Source: Eledone cirrhosa
Taxonomy: Eukaryota
DNA: 64,000 bases
Assembly (NCBI GenBank): GCA_964016885.1
Contig: OZ024765.1
Span: 4,526,001-4,590,000, forward strand
Direction: 5' to 3'
Shown: positions 1 through 64,000 of the stretch, piece after piece
How the letters are laid out: every line of letters starts with the position of its first letter
How positions within the stretch are numbered: position 1 is the first letter of the stretch
Translations under genes and position numbers: made by a program
The notes under the pieces: model-generated
The model's input: only the letters and a program-made list of their open reading frames with translations
Databases searched by the model: none
What the model was told of the DNA's origin: nothing

Positions 1-255
1 TAAAGGGTCGTAACTCTATGCTGGAAAGCATGACGTCTGCCCCTCTACCGGTATTGCCGAATAATTGTTTCTACTTTTGACACAAAGCTGGCAAATTACA
101 TAGTGTATTACTGGTACTTTATTTTATCGACCCCGTAAGGATGAAAGGCAAGGTTAACCTCGATGGGATTTGAACTCAGAAGGGCAAGGGCCATAACTCT
201 ATGCGTCAAAGCATGGCGTCGAAGCCTCTACCGATACTGCCAATCCACCGCCCTT
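1..255 (-). mobile_element. tRNA-derived SINE family A (Meta-domain-like), one near-full copy plus a partial head
   Basis: Reverse complement of the copy at 17284-17472 (GGGCGGTGGATTGGCAGTATCGGTAGAG...GAGTTCAAATCCC...GCCTTTCATCCTTACGGGGTCGATAAAATAAAGTACCAG). Confidence 0.85.
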
Positions 256-502
256 AATAATAATAATAATATGGATGAGGTGTTGACTTTTCCTTACATT
301 TATTGAGGAGAGATGTGCATTTCATGATTGATCAGCTCTAGGTTTGATCTGTATTGATTAGGCCTGATTCTGGAATCAAAAGCTCATAGGACATCTCCTG
401 TATAAAAACATACACACACACACACACACATACACACATATATACATACATATACATAAATACACATATATACACACATACATGTGTATATATATATATC
501 TA

Positions 503-1130
503 TCATCATCATCATCATCATCATCATCGTTTAACGTCCGTGTTCCATGCTTGCATGGGTTTGGACGGGGGTATTCCCACTTGAGGCAAGAGTGGTTGTC
601 TTGCTCGCATAGGACTATCTGGCGGGTTTTCTACAGCTGGATGCCCTTCCTAACACCAACCACATTTACAGTGTGGGGCTGGGAGGTTTTTACCGTGTTG
701 CCTACACGGCCACATTACAGCGTGAACTGTGTGTTTTTTTGACGTGACACCTACACAATCTCATTTGTTTCGGCCTGGATGTTGTGGCACCAACATAACT
801 TTACATTGAAAGGGGCGGTGTGGATGGGGTGGGGGTGGTGGGACGGGGGTGTATTTTGTTAGAGATGCCTACTGACTGTAGTAGGTTTTACTTTGTATTT
901 AGGTAAGGCGGGTCTTCTCTATTACTGAGTACCGCCAAAGGTCTCGGTCCAGTGACATTGTCTTGGTGAGGTGTAAGTGTGTGAGGTCGGAATTTATCAG
1001 CTCGTCCCAGGTTTTTCTGGGTCTGCCTATTCCGTGGCTACCGTCTATCTTTATTGCCCTGCACTTTGTTATACAGCTATCGTCCTTCATGCGCATCACG
1101 TGACCATACCAACGTAGCCTTCTCTCGAGT
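503..1130 (-). mobile_element. 5'-truncated RTE-clade LINE: ORF C-terminus, ~400-bp 3' UTR and (GAT)n tail
   Basis: RERRLRWYGHVMRM...GRPRKTWDELINSDL...DRDLWR, typical of the RTE C-terminus; ends AACCCATGCAAGCATGGAACACGGACGTTAAAC(GAT)n. Confidence 0.9.
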
Positions 1131-1149
1131 ATATATATATATATCTATA

Positions 1150-1188
<39 letters not shown>

Positions 1189-1494
1189 ATAATAATAAAA
1201 TTGAAGACTAAAATCCAAACCCGTACGCCATGTGCCTCCATATATATATGTATATATATAAAACATGAATTTTAGTTTTCTTTTTTCTTGTTGTGTATCC
1301 AGGTTTGGTATAGGTACACTGTATCCTTGTGTGTCGTAAGAAGTGTAAAAAACGGTTTCCAACCCATGCCAACATGGAAATGTTGATGATGATGATGATG
1401 ATGATATATATATATATATACACACGCACACACGCGCGCACAACAATGATAATGATAATAAATATGCATATGTGTGTTTGTGTGTATATATATA

Positions 1495-1525
<31 letters not shown>

Positions 1526-1575
1526 GAAGAGAGAGAGAGAGATGCACAATGATTATAATAATATGTATGTAGATA

Positions 1576-1643
<68 letters not shown>

Positions 1644-1769
1644 ATTTGATGTTTTAATCAACTAAAAACACCTCCTCACTTGCATATAATATATTCCATT
1701 ATGCAAATTGATTCCTTTTATGAAGAAAAAAAGAATAAAAGCAGTTATTATATACACGCACATGTATCT

Positions 1770-3574
1770 GTGTGTACATATATATATACATATATATATA
1801 TATGTATGTGTGTATGTATGTATGTATGTATGTATGTATGTATGTATGTATGTATGTGTGTGTATGTATGTATGTATGTGTATGTATGTATATATATATA
1901 TTTATGTATGTATATATATATATATTTATGTATGTATGTATGTATGTATATGTATGTATATATATATATATATTTATGTATGTATATATATATATATTTA
2001 TGTATGTATATATATATATTTATGTATGTATATATATATATATATATATTTATGTATGTATATATATATATTTATGTATGTATATATATATATTTATGCA
2101 TGTATATATATATATTTATGTATGTATATATATATATTTATGTATGTATATATTTATGTATGTATGCATATATATTTCTGTATGTATATATATCTATGTA
2201 GGTATGTATATATATTTATGTATAAATATGTATGTTTAAATATGTATGTATGTATGTATATATATTTATGTATAAATATGTATGCATGTATGTATATATA
2301 TTTATGTATAAATATGTATGCATGTATGTATATATATTAATGTATAAATATGTATGTATGTATATATATTTATGTATAAATATGTATGTATGTATATATA
2401 TTTATGTATAAATATGTATGCATGTATGTATATATATTTATGTATAAATATGTATGCATGTATGTATATATATTTATGTATAAATATGTATGCATGTATG
2501 TATATATATTTATGTATAAATATGTATGCATGTATGTATATATATTTATGTATAAATATGTATGTATGTATATATATTTATGTATAAATATGTATGTATG
2601 TATATATATTTATGTATAAATATGTATGCATGTATGTATATATATTTATGTATAAATATGTATGTATGTATATATATTTATGTATAAATATGTATGTATG
2701 TATATATATTTATGTATAAATATGTATGTATGTATATATATTTATGTATAAATATGTATGTATGTATATATATTTATGTATAAATATGTATGTATGTATA
2801 TATATTTATGTATAAATATGTATATATATATATCTATGTATAAATATGTATATATGTGTGTATATATATTTATGTATAAATATGTATATATGAGTATATT
2901 TATTTAAGTATAAATATGTATATATATATGAGTATATATATTTATGTATAAATATGTATATATATATATATGTGTGTATATATATGTATGTATAAATATG
3001 TACATATATATGTATATATATATATGTGTGTATATATATGTATGTATAAATATGTACATATATATGTATATATATATGCATGTATAAATATGTATATATA
3101 TGTAGATATATATATATATATATATGTGTAGATATATATATATATATATATGTAGATATATATATATATATGTAGATATATATATATATATGTAGATATA
3201 TATATATATATATATATGTGTAGATATATATATATATATATATGTAGATATATATATATATATGTAGATATATATATATATATGTAGATATATATATATA
3301 TGTAGATATATATATATATATGTAGATATATATATATATGTAGATATATATATATGTAGATATATATATATGTAGATATATATATATGTAGATATATATA
3401 TATGTAGATATATATATATGTAGATATATATATGTAGCTATATATATATACATATGAGTGTGCATCTCTCCATCTTTTCCATCTTTGTATGTCTCTATAT
3501 AGGTAACACAAATATGATATCGGTAGGATATATATATATATATATATATAACATATATATATAGATAAACACAC

Positions 3575-3633
<59 letters not shown>

Positions 3634-3886
3634 CACATATAGGATATATATGCACATGTAATCATTATCATTCATCATAAAATGTATATGCATGATATGC
3701 ACGTGTAATATATATCTATACATATATATATATATATATAGATATGATATATATATATGATATATATATATGATATATATATATGATATATATATATATG
3801 ATATATATATATATATATATATATATATCATATATATATATATATATATATCATATATATATATATATATGATATATATATATATA

Positions 3887-3936
<50 letters not shown>

Positions 3937-29032: not shown

Positions 29033-29703
29033 TCTGCCAGGAGTTGTGACTGACAGATAGTACCAGAATGAATAGACAAATGTAATGGAAACATTGTTTC
29101 CTTGGTCTGATCTGATGATCAGCTCCTTTCTTCTGCCAGGAGTTGTGACTGACAGATAGTATCAGTAATGGAAAGACCAATGGAAACATTGTTTCCTTGG
29201 TCTGATCTGATGATCAGCTCCTTTCTTCTGCCAGGAGTTGTGACTGACAGATAGTATCAGTAATGGAAAGACTAATGGAAACATTGTTTCCTTGGTCTGA
29301 TCTGATGATCAGCTCCTTTCTTCTGCCAGGAGTTGTGACTGACAGATAGTATCAGTAATGGAAAGACTAATGGAAACATTGTTTCCTTGGTCTGATCTGA
29401 TGATCAGCTCCTTTCTTCTGCCAGGAGTTGTGACTGACAGATAGTATCAGTAATGGAAAGACCAATGGAAACATTCTTTCCTTGGTCTGCCAATGGAAAC
29501 ATTGTTTCCTTGGTCTGATCTGATGATCAGCTCCTTTCTTCTGCCAGGAGTTGTAACTGACAGATAGTATCAGTAATGGAAAGACCAATGGAAACATTGT
29601 TACCTTGGTCTGACCTGATGATCAGCTCCTTTCTTCTGCCAGGAGTTGTGACTGACAGATAGTATCAGTAATGGAAAGACCAATGGAAACATTGTTTCCT
29701 TGG
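29033..29703. repeat. 95-bp hairpin-rich minisatellite, ~6.5 copies
   Basis: TGGAAACATTG at 29086, 29181, 29276...; internal hairpins. Confidence 0.95.
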
Positions 29704-41154: not shown

Positions 41155-42062
41155 CGAGGTGTGTCAGAAAAGTTCCAGGACTGATGTCACAAAAGATTTA
41201 TTTTAAACCCAAACTTCACACTAAGAGTTTTCTCCTTCAAAGTAATCCCCCTGGAGTATGTAACTGTAATCTTAGCTCTCTGCAGCGATCAAACATTTTT
41301 CTTCATAATTTTATATACATGTTTCAGGTCGTCAAGCAATGAGCACAGAGCAACGAACAAACTTAAAGTTTCTGGAAAGGTTGGGGAAAACTCCATCAGA
41401 AGCACTGGGATTGCTGCAGCAAGTGTGTGGAGATGAGACGATGTCACGCTCACGTGTTTTTGAGTGGTACAAGAGGTTTAAAGAAGGACGCGAGGACGTG
41501 GAAGATGACCCCAGGAGCGGAAGGCCCTCAACAACCAGGACTGAGGTCAACATTGAGCGCGTCAGGCAGATGGTGCATAGCGATCGTCGGCTGATTGTTC
41601 GACTGATGGCAAATGAGCTGGGCATGGATCGGGACAGCGTCTGGAAGATTCTCACTGAAGATTTGGACATGCGGAAAGTCTGCGCGAAGATGGTGCCAAA
41701 ACTGCTGAACGATGACCAGAAGGGTCGACGCATGCAAGTGTGCCAGGACATCCTCGAGCGTCTTGAAACCGAACCAGACTTGCTAGGGACAGTCATCACC
41801 AGTGATGAGTCATGGATCTTCGAGTACGACCCGAAGGGGACCCGTTTTGAAGACGTGGATGACATCAACAAGGCCGTGATGACGGAACTGTGGAGGATCC
41901 CGGAAGAATCCTTCCAGGAGTGCATGGACGTGGCAGAAAAGGATGGAAAAGTGCATTAGACTCCAGGGGGATGACTTTGAAGGAGAAAACTCTTAGTGTG
42001 AAGTTTGGGTTGGAAATAAATCTGTTGTGACATCAGTCCTGGAACTTTTCTGACCCACCTCG
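41155..42062 (+). mobile_element. Internally deleted mariner with 103-bp TIRs and TA target-site duplication
   Basis: TA-CGAGGTGTGTCAGAAAAGTTCCAGGACT...AGTCCTGGAACTTTTCTGACCCACCTCG-TA; arms 41155-41257 and 41960-42062. Confidence 0.95.
41339..41959 (+). pseudogene. Truncated mariner transposase: HTH domains and first catalytic Asp retained, most of the catalytic core deleted
   Basis: EQRTNLKF...GKT...VFEWYKRFKEGREDVEDDPRSGRP...KMVPKLL...ITSDESWIFEYDP joined directly to KGTRFEDVDDI; frameshift near 41927. Confidence 0.92.
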
Positions 42063-59474: not shown

Positions 59475-59714
59475 TATATATATATATTATTTATTTATAT
59501 ACATTTATTTAATTATTTGTATACACGCACACACACACACACACATATTTATGTGTGTGTATTTGTATACCTATGGCGAGTGTTTTCGCGTATGCTTGTG
59601 TATGTACGTATATGGATGCGTGTATGTATTTATTTAATCTCAATTACTTCTGTATTGTATTTTATTTACTTTATTCTTAACTCTGAAGCGGAGATTCATT
59701 CAGTCTCCTAAATA

Positions 59715-60270
59715 GAATTTTAGTCTACGACTTCTGCTATACCATTTACGTGGTTTGGTCTTTGCGTGCAATTGTTCTCTACGCTCCACATATGACGTAT
59801 TATCTTCGTTTTTTTCCGTTCATTGCCAGAGAACGTCTCTATGAACCACCTAAGAGAATATTAGTCTTCGACTTCTTTTATACCATAAACGTGGTTTTGT
59901 CTTTGCGTGCAATTGTTCTCTACGCTCCACATATGACGTATTATCTTCGTTTTTTTCCATTCATTGCCAGAGAACGTCTCTATGAACCACCTAAGAGAAT
60001 ATTAGTCTTCGACTTCTTTTATACCATAAACGTGGTTTTGTCTTTGCGTGCAATTGTTCTCTACGTTCCACATATGACGTATTATCTTCGTTTTTTTCCG
60101 TTCATTGCCAGAGAACGTCTCTATGAACCACCTAAGAGAATATTAGTCTTCGACTTCTTTTATACCATAAACGTGGTTTTGTCTTTGCGTGTAATTGTTT
60201 GACCGCACCAAATAATGACGTATTATATTCGTTTTTTCCCGTTCTTTGCCAGGGAACGTTTCCACGAACC
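59715..60270. repeat. 141-bp tandem repeat, ~3.7 copies
   Basis: CGTGGTTT.GTCTTTGCGTG at ~59749, 59890, 60031 and 60172. Confidence 0.95.
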
Positions 60271-60416
60271 AAAGTATCGTCTTCCTGTCTTCCTCCGGTT
60301 GCAATGTTTTTTGAAATATTCACTTCTGCGTTCACAGATTGACTTTGTTAGTTTCAGAAGATCCCGTTAAGGGTGAAAGCAGCGATTCTTTGCTTAAACT
60401 TTAATCTGTTATTTTA

Positions 60417-60472
<56 letters not shown>

Positions 60473-61082
60473 CTAATATTTCTTTGTTGTACTGAGTCAT
60501 TTGCTTTGTTATTTCTCTTTACTTTGTACATACATACAAATATACATACATACATATATATATATGTATACATATATATATATATATACACACACATAAT
60601 ATAAACATACATACATATCATATAAACATATATATATATATTATATATGTGTGTATGTATTATATATATATATATATATAAATATATATAAGTATGTATA
60701 TATATACATATATATATATAAATATATATACATATATATATATAAATATATATATAAATATATATAATATATATAAATATATATAATATATATAAATATA
60801 TATATATATGTATATATAAATATATATATATGTATATATATATATATGTATATATATAAATATATATATATGTATATATATATATATGTATATATATAAA
60901 TATATATATGTATATATATAAATATATAAATATATATAAATATATATATATATTTATATATATATATATGTTTGTTTATATGTATCTATCTATATATTAT
61001 ATATATATATTTATATATATATATGTTTGTTTATATGTATCTATATATATATTATATATATATATATATAAATATATATTAT

Positions 61083-61127
<45 letters not shown>

Positions 61128-61250
61128 GGAGGTGAGTTTTATTGTAGTACAATAAAGCAATGCAGATATCGGATAAGAAGCACTCTACAGTTTGTGGGAC
61201 TGGAGTATGCATAATATAAGATCAAAAGATGGTTAAAGGAGTTCAATATA

Positions 61251-61317
61251 TTTTATTATGCGCATTTCAAAAACAAACATCATCAAACAATAATATTTGT
61301 GTTTTCATCAGATAAAA
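61251..61317 (-). ncRNA. Minimal type I hammerhead ribozyme
   Basis: TTTTAT-CTGATGA-[16-position stem II, one mismatch, GTTT loop]-GAAA-TGCGCA-TA-ATAAAA. Confidence 0.88.
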
Positions 61318-61580
61318 CAGGAGAACATGATATGAAGGCTAAAAAAACACTTGTTGATAGTGCAGTTTTAAATCAACATATGAAAAGTGGTTTTAGATTG
61401 ATGTGTGATATTGGGAAAAATATTTTATTTAGAGAGGGGGGGAGAGAAAAGGATGAAAAGGGAAGGAGATGAGAGGGAGAGATGGGTGATAGAGAGAAAG
61501 AGATAGTTTTTATAACAGAGAGGAGATATATTTTATATAGAGGGGTTGAAAACCGTTGGAAGATACTGTATAAATTATTA

Positions 61581-61643
61581 TTATCTGATGAAAACACAAA
61601 TATTATTGTTTGATGATGTTTGTTTTTGAAATGCGCATAATAA
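61581..61643 (+). ncRNA. Inverted copy of the hammerhead, stem I shortened to 4 bp
   Basis: TTAT-CTGATGA-...-GAAA-TGCGCA-TA-ATAA. Confidence 0.8.
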
Positions 61644-61677
61644 AATATATTGAACTCCTTTAACCATCTTTTGATCT

Positions 61678-61710
<33 letters not shown>

Positions 61711-61724
61711 GATACATATAAACA

Positions 61725-61773
<49 letters not shown>

Positions 61774-61798
61774 TATAGATACATATAAACAAACATAC

Positions 61799-61829
<31 letters not shown>

Positions 61830-61930
61830 TATAAACATGCATATATACATACATATATATATATATATACACACATATAAACATGCATATATACATACAT
61901 ATATATATATATAAACATGCATATATACAT

Positions 61931-61976
<46 letters not shown>

Positions 61977-62499
61977 GTATTTATATACACACATATAAAC
62001 AGACATACACACACACTCACACACACACACACAGAGCTATATATATAATATCTAAAAAGATAAGACATCAGTCATTATTAAATTATACTGGTATAACAGT
62101 GAACAGAACTCCCTCCAGCCATATTCCAGAAATTATATTCTTTCTATTATACAATTTCTTAATGTTAAATCTATTTATTTCTTGAAATTGTAATTTAATA
62201 CATTTCAGGAATTTGGGGATAATTCTCTTGAGCAACTCAAGTTTACCTGCTCTCTTTTCTTCTTCAGTAGTCATATCATTATCATCATCATCATTATCAT
62301 CATTATCATTATCATCATTATTATTATCATCATTATCATCATTATCATCATTATTATCATTATCATCATCATTATCATCATCATCATCATTATCATCATC
62401 ATTATCATCATCATCATTATCATCACCATCACCATTATCACCCCTGGTAAGAATGGGCTGGACCACTACATATAAATAGTAGTGGCCTGAGTAAGTGGG

Positions 62500-63562
62500 C
62501 AAGTTGGTACTAGTTCCACAGTTGGTGTGTTGATAGTCAAAGTTGGTACTAGTTCCACAGTTGGTGTGTTGATAGTCAAAGTTGGTACTAGTTCCACAGT
62601 TGGTGTGTTGATAGTCAAAGTTGGTACTAGTTCCACAGTTGGTGTGTTGATAGTCAAAGTTGGTACTAGTTCCACAGTTGGTGTGTTGATAGTCAAAGTT
62701 GGTACTAGTTCCACAGTTGGTGTGTTGATAGTCAAAGTTGGTACTAGTTCCACAGTTGGTGTGTTGGTAGTCAAAGTTGGTACTAGTTCCACAGTTGGTA
62801 TTAGTTCCACAGTTGGTCTGTTGTTAGTCAAAGTTGGTACTAGTTCCACAGTTACTGTGTTGATAGTCAAAGTTGGTACTAGTTCCACAGTTGGTGTGTT
62901 GATAGTCAAAGTTGGTACTAGTTCCACAGTTGGTGTGTTGGTAGTCAAAGTTGGTACTAGTTCCACAGTTGGTATTAGTTCCACAGTTGGTCTGTTGTTA
63001 GTCAAAGTTGGTACTAGTTCCACAGTTACTGTGTTGATAGTCAAAGTTGGTACTAGTTCCACAGTTGGTGTGTTGATAGTCAAAGTTGGTACTAGTTCCA
63101 CAGTTGGTGTGTTGATAGTCAAAGTTGGTACTAGTTCCACAGTTGGTGTGTTGATAGTCAAAGTTGGTACTAGTTCCACAGTTGGTGTGTTGATAGTCAA
63201 AGTTGGTACTAGTTCCACAGTTGGTGTGTTGATAGTCAAAGTTGGTACTAGTTCCACAGTTGGTGTGTTGGTAGTCAAAGTTGGTACTAGTTCCACAGTT
63301 GGTGTGTTGATAGTCAAAGTTGGTACTAGTTCCACAGTTGGTGTGTTGATAGTCAAAGGTGGTACTAGTTCCACAGTTGGTACTAGTTCCACAGTTGGTG
63401 TGTTGATAGTCAAAGTTGGTACTAGTTCCACAGTTGGTGTGTTGATAGTCAAAGTTGGTACTAGTTCCACAGTTGGTGTGTTGATAGTCAAAGTTGGTAC
63501 TAGTTCCACAGTTGGTGTGTTGATAGTCAAAGTTGGTACTAGTTCCACAGTTGGTGTGTTGG
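62500..63562. repeat. 39-bp minisatellite, ~27 copies, with an 18-bp subunit
   Basis: AGTTGGTACTAGTTCCACAGTTGGTGTGTTGATAGTCAA. Confidence 0.97.
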
Positions 63563-63664
63563 ATTGTTTGTTCCATTACATGTGGTTATTGCCGTTTGTT
63601 TCGATTATATTGTTATTACACTGTTGCAGTGTATTTGTTTATCCCTCAGAAGACTGTTACCCAG

Positions 63665-63738
63665 GGTAAGATGCCGTGTTGTGAGACTAAACCCAGAACC
63701 ACATAGTTGTGAACCTCACTCTTTAACCACACAGCCAG
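63665..63738 (-). mobile_element. Decayed tRNA-like SINE head
   Basis: TGGCTGTGTGGTTAAAG...GGTTCTGGGTTTAGTCTC on the - strand. Confidence 0.55.
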
Positions 63739-64000
63739 ATTATTGTAGTTAGACTCCATCACCACCTTTATCCCTCCCCACTTCTCGATTCATTACAATT
63801 CTAGACTGTTCTCTTCATTAGTATTACAAGAACAAAAAACAATTTAACATAACTTAAAAAAATAAAACCGAAAAAAAAAATATTGAACACATCCATTTTC
63901 TCTAATCTATTATCAGTTTCTTCTTTAACTCTAAAAATCTATTGATTTATTTTAACTTGTGGCAAAACAACCAAAATTATTGCCAAAGTGTGTTAAATTA

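What the first reader, a model, noticed from the sequence alone, without database searches (positions are those of the whole stretch)
61211..61685. Divergent pair of identical hammerhead ribozymes forming 105-bp inverted termini
Seen: perfect inverted arms around a 265-bp non-coding spacer, each with CUGAUGA, a long stem II, GAAA-UGCGCA-UA. The inversion begins 4 nt before the core, shortening stem I of the + copy. Either strand's transcript would carry one sense ribozyme and could also form a 105-bp duplex that masks it. Established: Penelope-like elements often have inverted pLTR ends. Inference: a recent non-autonomous insertion with self-cleavage potential on both strands.
Basis: partly seen in the sequence, partly recalled or inferred. 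Interest (0 to 1): 0.75.

Follow-up and report, generated by a model that had tools for sequence, protein, structure and literature searches.

The report
Two-armed Penelope insertion with mirrored hammerheads
This is a short head-to-head insertion of a young Penelope-like jumping gene, one of many such pairs in this animal genome, and its two mirror-image predicted self-cutting RNAs are likely a by-product of the element's RNA being copied from both sides of one DNA break, not a purpose-built two-strand device.

Summary
The 105-bp perfect arms and both hammerhead motifs are real. They are not the ends of a small element. The insertion spans about 61123-61685 inside (AT)n. It consists of two truncated, head-to-head 3' ends of a young 3.9-kb Penelope-like element with an intact 800-aa RT/GIY-YIG frame and Hydra-clade motifs. 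The 'spacer' is element sequence, and an 88-bp tail lies outside the left arm. This exact junction occurs once in the genome, yet 78 of the first 100 identical ribozyme copies sit in such divergent pairs. Inverted PLE copies with opposite-strand hammerheads are published.

The family record is the better lead. All 99 sampled arms end at one of two sites 88 nt apart, one per side in 39 of 39 pairs. 51 of 98 arms stop at one initiator-like base, none at the ribozyme cut. Two loci repeat one small unit in both arms. Likely mechanism: priming from both ends of a break on uncut capped or circular RNA. Cleavage is untested; read-through RNA from either strand is predicted to bury the ribozyme. This scan noted the same two-ended, capped run-off pattern earlier on other DNA of this genome.

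The parts
61123..61685 (.). Whole two-armed insertion of the Penelope-like element in (AT)n; each end uncertain by about 2 bp because of AT microhomology
   Evidence: BLAST to a real 3,896-bp unit (L033 5173-9068): ref 88->1, 3896->3530, 3 extra bases, 3792->3896
61123..61210 (-).
   Evidence: 7,858 exact B ends next to (AT)n, reversed control 0
61211..61577 (-). Long arm: 367 bp of the element's 3' region / pLTR (ref 3530-3896); includes the left inverted arm and 262 bp of the 'spacer'
   Evidence: 100% identical at 40 other places; 1 difference to the reference in 453 bp with the tail
61249..61319 (-). Complete type I hammerhead motif (8-bp stem I, core at 61311-61305, long stem II, palindromic stem III); predicted cut after 61257
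   Evidence: activity not tested
61381..61381 (-). Inferred capped transcription start (ref A3726, initiator-like); the commonest stop point of arms in other copies
   Evidence: 51 of 98 arms stop at 3724-3727; 3,824 genome-wide starts here; inferred, no RNA data
61578..61580 (.). Head-to-head junction: TTA microhomology plus one extra TTA; unique in the genome
61581..61685 (+). Short arm (ref 3792-3896) ending at outer end 'A'
   Evidence: 5,301 exact A ends next to (AT)n, reversed control 7
61581..61647 (+). Hammerhead motif with stem I cut to 4 bp (core at 61585-61591); predicted cut after 61639
60620..61122 (.). Left (AT)n-rich target microsatellite (start approximate)
   Evidence: sequence
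61686..61980 (.). Right (AT)n-rich target microsatellite (end approximate)
   Evidence: sequence

Best explanation
The stretch is two truncated 3' ends of a young Penelope-like retrotransposon joined head to head inside an (AT)n repeat, likely made when the element's enzyme cut the repeat and copied its RNA from both DNA ends at once. SHOWN: parent unit, ends, junction, copy numbers, the A/B end rule and the stop-point distribution. INFERRED: (1) the GIY-YIG nuclease cuts both strands of (AT)n. (2) Each 3'-OH primes reverse transcription at a fixed internal RNA site, one at A (ref 3896) and the other at B (88 nt downstream), which makes the one-sided tail. (3) Both cDNAs run back through an uncut hammerhead. 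Most run off a capped 5' end at ref 3726; some, like this locus's long arm, come from longer (tandem or circular) RNA and stop at random. (4) The two cDNA ends join by microhomology. The hammerhead lies 38-108 nt from end A, so any two-armed insertion with arms over about 110 nt carries a divergent pair. The ribozyme most likely works as a dimer on multimeric element RNA, not at this locus.
For: Parent: five tandem units of 3,893-3,907 bp, 1-11 substitutions apart, with an 821-codon open frame; the model's two best PDB matches are telomerase RTs; Hydra motifs. Ends: 99 of 99 young arms end at A (51) or B (48), and 39 of 39 opposite-strand pairs are A+B. 12 of 20 singletons are also A+B, as are 15 of 18 long insertions. 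Either arm can reach further 5' than the other, which a single folded-back cDNA cannot give. Stops: 51 of 98 at 3724-3727 and 0 of 98 at the cut site; genome-wide 3,824 against 9. G stands before A3726 in 16 of 23 arms against 7 of 23 elsewhere, p 0.017. Same source: arms of one insertion are identical in 29 of 35 pairs, against a permutation mean of 19.1 and maximum of 26. L212 and L230 repeat one new 204-bp or 185-bp unit in both arms. In vitro, a PLE protein cuts and extends both strands, starts at two sites that bound the tail, and uses uncut RNA (PMC11167929).
Against: The A+B rule has exceptions: one young 4.5-kb A+A palindrome (L036/L200), and three A+A and one B+B among 60 mixed-age loci. 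The cap signal falls to p 0.064 without 5 ambiguous junctions, and 48 of the first 100 genome-wide junctions have T, not G (41 G, 11 A, counted by eye). None of 30 examined tail-to-ORF junctions has its upstream pLTR starting at 3726, against a simple capped one-unit mRNA as template of full-length copies. Shared variants show a shared source, not a shared molecule. The ribozyme fold shows no covariation above shuffles (354 of 500 reach the paired share; 1 two-sided change), and Rfam does not recognise it. Every mechanistic step is read from DNA only.
Confidence: 0.8

Rival explanations
1. Self-priming or fold-back: one cDNA, or an antisense RNA as proposed in PMC3846280, folds on itself at a palindrome and is copied back, giving the inverted arm.
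For: Many junctions sit on short palindromes, and the commonest class is a near-perfect palindrome at 3725-3726. In several long insertions both arms end at nearly the same coordinate (L036, L040, L041, L038, L046). L036/L200 is a symmetric A+A palindrome.
Against: The copy-back arm could never reach further 5' than its template, yet A arms do so in L039, L042, L043, L047 and B arms in this window and L033. It does not explain one A and one B end in 39 of 39 pairs, nor a G before the start base on both arms of one insertion (L163). This window's junction joins ref 3530 to 3792.
Confidence: 0.1
2. A self-propagating non-autonomous family (MITE-like or retrozyme) with fixed 105-bp inverted termini, selected to cleave RNA on both strands.
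For: The arms are perfect and the locus is non-coding. Short 430-bp palindromes with very similar ends are the commonest insertion (29 of 39 pairs end within 3724-3761).
Against: The exact junction occurs once. The short palindromes differ in their junction letters, as independent events would. The tail breaks the symmetry. The + copy has lost half of stem I. Read-through RNA folds into a 105-bp duplex (about -157 kcal/mol) against -6.0 and -1.8 for the two hammerhead folds.
Confidence: 0.03
3. Two separate events or templates: two RNA-protein particles at one break, or two neighbouring insertions fused later by deletion, or an assembly artefact.
For: Arms can differ by a whole unit in length (L037, L046). 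A few pairs differ in sequence (6 of 35). No public contig spans the locus, so the junction was not confirmed independently.
Against: Independent choice predicts half of the pairs to be A+A or B+B; 0 of 39 are. Both arms of L212 and L230 share a junction, and one search lists no other source array for it. Imperfect, varied junctions and a one-sided tail are unlike palindromic assembly errors.
Confidence: 0.07

Closest known systems
Hydra-clade Penelope-like elements (Craig et al. 2021, PMC8557442; section 11, passages, supplement parts 1, 2, 7 of 59 read)
   Same: Single RT + C-terminal GIY-YIG frame, DKT, CxCx5C linker, no CCHH, C-terminal CxxC and CxH, (TA)n targets, type I hammerhead near the 3' end. 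Penelope-13_HM is listed with an inverted truncated copy and a hammerhead on both strands.
   Different: Unit 3.9 kb (described families are generally under 3 kb) with a 1.3-kb repetitive 3' region; RWT instead of RWK; about 70-aa low-confidence insert before the linker; stem II of 14 pairs (3-7 in the listed Hydra hammerheads); tail 88 bp against 30-40.
Canonical PLE insertion structure: inverted 5'-truncated copy plus a one-sided tail (PMC8557442 Fig. 2 legend; PMC3846280 passages; PMC2377424 passages)
   Same: Head-to-head arms, tail at one end only, partial tandems, microhomology at the junction.
   Different: Here the ends, stop points and junctions can be counted over thousands of young copies. 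The passages read describe the structure, or propose self-priming or endonuclease resolution, not priming from both ends.
PLE hammerheads (Cervera and de la Pena 2014, PMC4209133; parts 1-2 of 4 read)
   Same: Type I motif in the pLTR, small palindromic helix III suited to dimers, larger helix II. The paper notes dual hammerheads 100-700 bp apart on opposite strands and proposes circular templates.
   Different: Longer, G-U-rich stem II with no G10.1-C11.1 pair; one copy of this pair is truncated in stem I; activity not measured here.
Poseidon element of Anolis in vitro (Frangieh et al. 2024, PMC11167929; parts 1-2 of 4 read, supplements not seen)
   Same: Two internal RT start sites bounding the tail, AT-rich targets, both strands cut and extended, uncut RNA as the main substrate.
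   Different: There the sites lie inside the ORF and showed no strand preference in vitro; here both lie upstream of the ATG and are used one per side in 39 of 39 pairs.
LINE-1 twin priming and cap-derived 5' G (PMC4859970, passages)
   Same: Second target strand primes a second cDNA, giving an inversion; an extra G marks a capped 5' end.
   Different: L1 inversions rearrange non-overlapping parts of one RNA (recalled); here both cDNAs copy the same stretch from fixed start sites, so the 3' end is duplicated.
Metazoan non-LTR retrozymes (10.64898/2026.07.22.740005, part 1 of 5 read)
   Same: Type I hammerhead, PLE-related, non-coding at this locus.
   Different: Retrozymes are tandem hammerhead repeats forming their own families; this is a one-off truncation of a coding element.

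Membership tests
Penelope-like elements (EN+) | Single ORF with a telomerase-related RT | tested here: met
   800-aa frame from ATG with a YRDD motif; model pLDDT 80, top two PDB matches are telomerase RTs, E 1e-7. Pfam has no significant hit.
Penelope-like elements (EN+) | GIY-YIG endonuclease in the same ORF | tested here: met
   LIY...YFG with downstream R, H, E, N aligned to homologues with YIG. Pfam GIY-YIG hit in only 1 of 19 aligned proteins, E 0.0012, so this rests mainly on motifs.
Penelope-like elements (EN+) | Partial tandems (pLTRs), inverted truncated copy, one-sided tail | tested here: met
Penelope-like elements (EN+) | Hammerhead motif in the pLTR | tested here: met
   ref 3788-3858
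Hydra clade | DKG changed to DKT | tested here: met
   SDKTNNLY
Hydra clade | CxCX5C linker; CCHH absent; CxxC and CxH around E and N | tested here: met
   CNCRIKNKC at 659-667; one Cys between LIY and YFG; CNLCLNE; ICLH (definitions)
Hydra clade | RWK motif | tested here: inconclusive
   RWT at 37-39 here; RWK in 11 of the 16 homologues that cover the site
Hydra clade | Insertion into (TA)n | tested here: met
   99 of 99 arms end next to (AT)n-type sequence
Hydra clade | Placement in the clade on an RT tree | not tested
   No tree built; the published Hydra-1_Obim and Hydra-1_Ajap N-termini resemble the protein by eye
Naiad/Chlamys | N-terminal GIY-YIG | tested here: not met
   The nuclease is C-terminal
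Type I hammerhead ribozyme | Core CUGANGA / GAAA / UH with three helices | tested here: met
   97.9% of cells paired in 48 variants against 35-64% for slid controls; changes are one-sided and keep pairing, but do not exceed shuffles
Type I hammerhead ribozyme | Self-cleavage | not testable with these tools
   Monomer fold -6.0 kcal/mol, dimer fold -31.9; no cleavage data
Non-LTR retrozyme / non-autonomous family | Repeated unit that propagates with fixed structure | tested here: not met
   Junction found once; no tandem of hammerhead units at this locus

The most novel reading that the evidence does not exclude
This family is a genome-wide record of how Penelope-like elements integrate. One enzyme dimer grips one RNA at two fixed sites 88 nt apart and primes both ends of a double-strand cut in (AT)n. 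Capped, uncut RNA gives the short palindromes, while circular RNA gives the long, more-than-unit, ORF-bearing copies. Two loci preserve rolling-circle copying of 204- and 185-nt circles in both arms. This would explain inverted pLTRs, the one-sided tail and partial tandems in one scheme, and intact young ORFs make it testable in vitro.
Probability: 0.55. Interest if true: 0.7.

Novelty: new member of a known kind. Interest (0 to 1): 0.45.

Why it matters
The locus itself is ordinary: inverted PLE copies with hammerheads on opposite strands are in print. What matters is the family around it. How PLEs form tandem and inverted insertions and their tail is named as an open problem (PMC8557442), and the one in vitro study read here left the steps after first-strand synthesis unvalidated (PMC11167929). 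Here thousands of copies give fixed start sites, a stop hotspot, no stops at the ribozyme cut and circle-like repeats, together with intact ORFs. That yields precise predictions for a bench test. It also implies hundreds of loci (extrapolated from 39 pairs in 100 copies) able to form long RNA hairpins if transcribed.

Tried and rejected
Rfam at the gathering score (whole window) and at E<=10 (59500-64000) gave no hammerhead. Pfam on the ORF gave no significant family, and PDB sequence searches with the protein and with the alignment gave nothing useful. The viral fold library gave only generic polymerase folds. Naiad membership was considered from the Cys motifs and rejected on domain order. 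The idea that arms stop at the ribozyme cut, raised by two older loci, failed: 0 of 98 young arms, 9 genome-wide matches, 4 of which look like point changes in intact ribozymes. The prediction that full-length copies start at ref 3726 failed or was untestable: none of 19 single long arms reached a full unit, and 0 of 30 tail-to-ORF junctions start there. Covariation of the ribozyme stems did not exceed shuffles. The long-arm distance test had a scoring fault (all zeros) and was redone, with low power because most arms are identical. Upstream stop positions of long arms are partly alignment breaks in the repetitive 3' region and were used only as 'upstream of 3724'. Expression: no RNA holder listed. 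Presence/absence: public contigs do not span the locus. No target-site duplication can be read in (AT)n. The look-up of earlier notes by sequence returned nothing. Searches for a published two-ended priming model for PLEs found none (listings only for most hits, subscription papers not covered).

Full report
OBSERVATION. Window 61211-61315 and 61581-61685 are exact reverse complements over 105 bp, 265 bp apart. Each arm reads as a type I hammerhead: CUGAUGA, a 14-pair stem II with one mismatch, GAAA, a palindromic UGCGCA and a UA cut site. On the - strand stem I has 8 pairs (61319-61312 with 61256-61249). On the + strand it has 4, because that arm begins 4 nt before the core. Rfam does not recognise either copy. 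The exact 69-nt motif occurs 1,688 times in the 3.0-Gb genome, reversed control 0.

WHAT IT IS. A DNA search returned 40 other places identical over the first 367 of the 475 bases and none with all 475 (only the best candidates are scored). Several lie about 3.9 kb apart. Five tandem units cut from these loci are 3,893-3,907 bp long, differ by 1-11 substitutions and hold one 821-codon open frame, 800 aa from the ATG. I used one real unit (L033 5173-9068) as reference, numbered 1-3896. Against it the window reads: (AT)n, ref 88->1, ref 3896->3530, three extra bases, ref 3792->3896, (AT)n. The insertion therefore spans about 61123-61685 and consists of two truncated 3' ends joined head to head. 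The 'spacer' is simply the part of the longer arm that the shorter arm lacks. The 88-bp piece left of 61211 is the PLE tail. The junction is a TTA microhomology with one extra TTA and occurs once in the genome.

THE PARENT. The protein has 21 homologues at E<=0.001, 28-38% identical and unnamed; 18 of them were aligned. The model has mean pLDDT 80 and its two best PDB matches are telomerase RTs. Pfam finds GIY-YIG in 1 of 19 aligned proteins and nothing significant in this one, so the nuclease call rests on LIY...YFG and the R, H, E, N residues. Craig et al. define the Hydra clade by DKT, RWK, a CxCX5C linker, no CCHH, C-terminal CxxC and CxH, hammerheads and (TA)n targets. All are present except that RWK reads RWT. 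The unit is longer than the usual <3 kb. No tree was built, so the clade call is by motifs (about 0.9); PLE membership is firm. Only 45 exact tail-to-ORF junctions exist for this young subfamily, against thousands of short copies.

IS THE PAIR SPECIAL? No. Of the first 100 exact ribozyme copies listed, 78 form 39 divergent pairs, 29 of them with starts under 300 bp apart (counted by eye). Cervera and de la Pena noted dual hammerheads 100-700 bp apart on opposite strands in Schistosoma PLEs. Craig's File S2 lists Penelope-13_HM with a hammerhead on each strand. Inverted truncated copies with a one-sided 30-40-bp tail are the standard PLE structure.

THE FAMILY RECORD: ENDS. Exact end A (ref 3896) next to (AT)n occurs 5,301 times and end B (ref 88) 7,858 times. 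I took the first 100 of 1,624 hits of a young-subfamily anchor and fetched 99 arms at 59 loci; the last hit was not fetched. All 99 end at A (51) or B (48). All 39 opposite-strand pairs are A+B (one of three arms at L155 was left out of the pairing). Of the 20 singletons, 12 are A+B with a short or mutated partner and 8 are single-armed or internally rearranged. Of 18 long insertions, 15 are A+B, one is A+A, one is single-armed and one is unresolved. Among 60 mixed-age loci I saw three A+A and one B+B (the rest were not tallied).

THE FAMILY RECORD: STOP POINTS. Of 98 resolved arms, 51 stop at ref 3724-3727, 66 at 3724-3745, 23 run further upstream, 9 stop downstream of 3745, and none stops at the ribozyme cut. 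Genome-wide, 3,824 arms start exactly at A3726 with a foreign base before it (a lower bound) and 2,367 read through. Only 9 match a start at the cut site (a pattern limited to the young subfamily). A3726 sits in an initiator-like TCA context (motif recalled). G precedes it in 16 of 23 arms against 7 of 23 at other stops, p 0.017, or p 0.064 without five junctions where the G could be native. An untemplated G is taken as the mark of a copied cap in L1 and SVA, and Penelope has an internal promoter in its pLTR.

THE FAMILY RECORD: SHARED TEMPLATE. Arms of one insertion are identical over ref 3746-3857 in 29 of 35 pairs, against a permutation mean of 19.1 and a maximum of 26 in 10,000, and they share private variants. 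Two loci go further. L212 repeats a 204-bp unit (ref 3854 to 161) with the same new junction twice in each arm. L230 repeats a 185-bp unit (ref 3885 to 174) with its junction 3 and 5 times. Each still ends B on one side and A on the other. One search lists no other array that could be their source, so a small circular RNA copied from both ends is the simplest reading.

MECHANISM. Shown: the structure and the counts above. Inferred: the nuclease cuts both strands of (AT)n; each end primes at a fixed internal RNA site, A or B; both cDNAs run back through the uncut hammerhead and join by microhomology. This matches the in vitro Poseidon results: both strands cut and extended, two start sites bounding the tail, uncut RNA as main substrate, a predicted dimer. 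Fold-back of one cDNA, or self-priming on antisense RNA as proposed for Adineta, cannot give arms in which either side reaches further 5', nor the A+B rule. One result goes against the simplest version: none of 30 examined tail-to-ORF junctions has its upstream pLTR starting at 3726. ORF-bearing copies therefore come from longer-than-unit templates, tandem read-through RNA or the circles proposed in 2014. This window's long arm passes 3726 and so belongs to that class. Its short arm stopped early, which is uncommon: 37 of 39 pairs keep stem I and core in both arms.

DOES THIS LOCUS CLEAVE? Probably little. The monomer hammerhead folds are worth -6.0 (- copy) and -1.8 kcal/mol (+ copy), below the minimum-energy folds. 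A dimer through the palindromic stem III is worth -31.9, and the minimum-energy dimer contains the same stems I and III. Read-through RNA from either side makes the antisense arm first and folds into the 105-bp duplex (about -157). Only a - strand RNA starting at 61381 would be free of it. Across 48 variants 97.9% of cells pair, against 35-64% for slid controls, and changes are one-sided A-U/G-U or C-G/U-G. This fits a conserved fold but does not exceed shuffles. Published PLE hammerheads cleave weakly alone or need the protein.

NOVELTY AND VERDICT. The finding is a new member of a known kind. The mechanistic reading was not found in seven literature searches, which do not cover subscription papers. 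I formed it before opening earlier notes; notes on other DNA of this genome report the same two-ended and capped run-off pattern. These are unchecked AI notes, not independent support. Papers seen: PMC8557442 (outline, passages, section 11, supplement parts 1, 2, 7 of 59 and one search), PMC11167929 (parts 1-2 of 4, no supplements), PMC4209133 (parts 1-2 of 4), 10.64898/2026.07.22.740005 (part 1 of 5), and PMC3846280, PMC2377424, PMC4859970 (passages). Confidence: PLE identity 0.97, two-ended priming 0.8, capped start at 3726 0.65, circular template for long copies 0.55. Interest 0.45.

Noticed in passing
L212 (G000:C2, about 216,011,650-216,012,490) and L230 (G000:C13, about 36,269,500-36,270,860): Two-armed mini-arrays of 204-bp and 185-bp units that hold both end sites but no hammerhead core; the same new junction recurs in both arms, as if a small circular RNA were copied round from both ends.
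   Followed up: partly
L036 / L200 (G000:C1, about 362.768-362.777 Mb): Symmetric palindrome of two 4.5-kb arms, both ending at A and meeting on an AATT at ref 3297; an exception to the A+B rule.
   Followed up: partly
L038, L040, L041, L046, L037: In several long insertions both arms stop within 1-95 nt of the same reference coordinate, sometimes although one arm is a whole unit longer; unexplained.
   Followed up: no
alignment A2: Most common stem variants between subfamilies are A/G changes on the sense strand that swap A-U and G-U pairs; these may be structure-tolerated drift or fixed RNA editing.
   Followed up: no
L064, L090, L092: Older copies share a stop point at ref 3822, inside stem II; possibly another subfamily or deletion form.
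   Followed up: no
window 57909 (-), 52843 (-), 30534 (+): Three further hammerhead-like motifs unrelated to this family; two share a GAAAUAUAUAUA stem III.
   Followed up: no
window 41309-41956 (+): Open frame of 216 codons that looks like a mariner-type transposase N-terminus (label recalled).
   Followed up: no
window 59711-60200, 62500-63560, 29100-29700: Tandem arrays with 141-bp, 39-bp and about 95-bp units.
   Followed up: no
reference unit 2570-3720 (L033): The 1.3-kb region after the stop codon is built of internal duplications and homopolymers that vary between copies; the protein also has an approximately 70-aa Asn-rich insert before the linker, recalling the N-rich inserts of Adineta PLEs.
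   Followed up: no
runs X5, X6: Contigs from two other coded organisms carry close matches to the hammerhead-tail region, so the family may be shared with relatives.
   Followed up: partly
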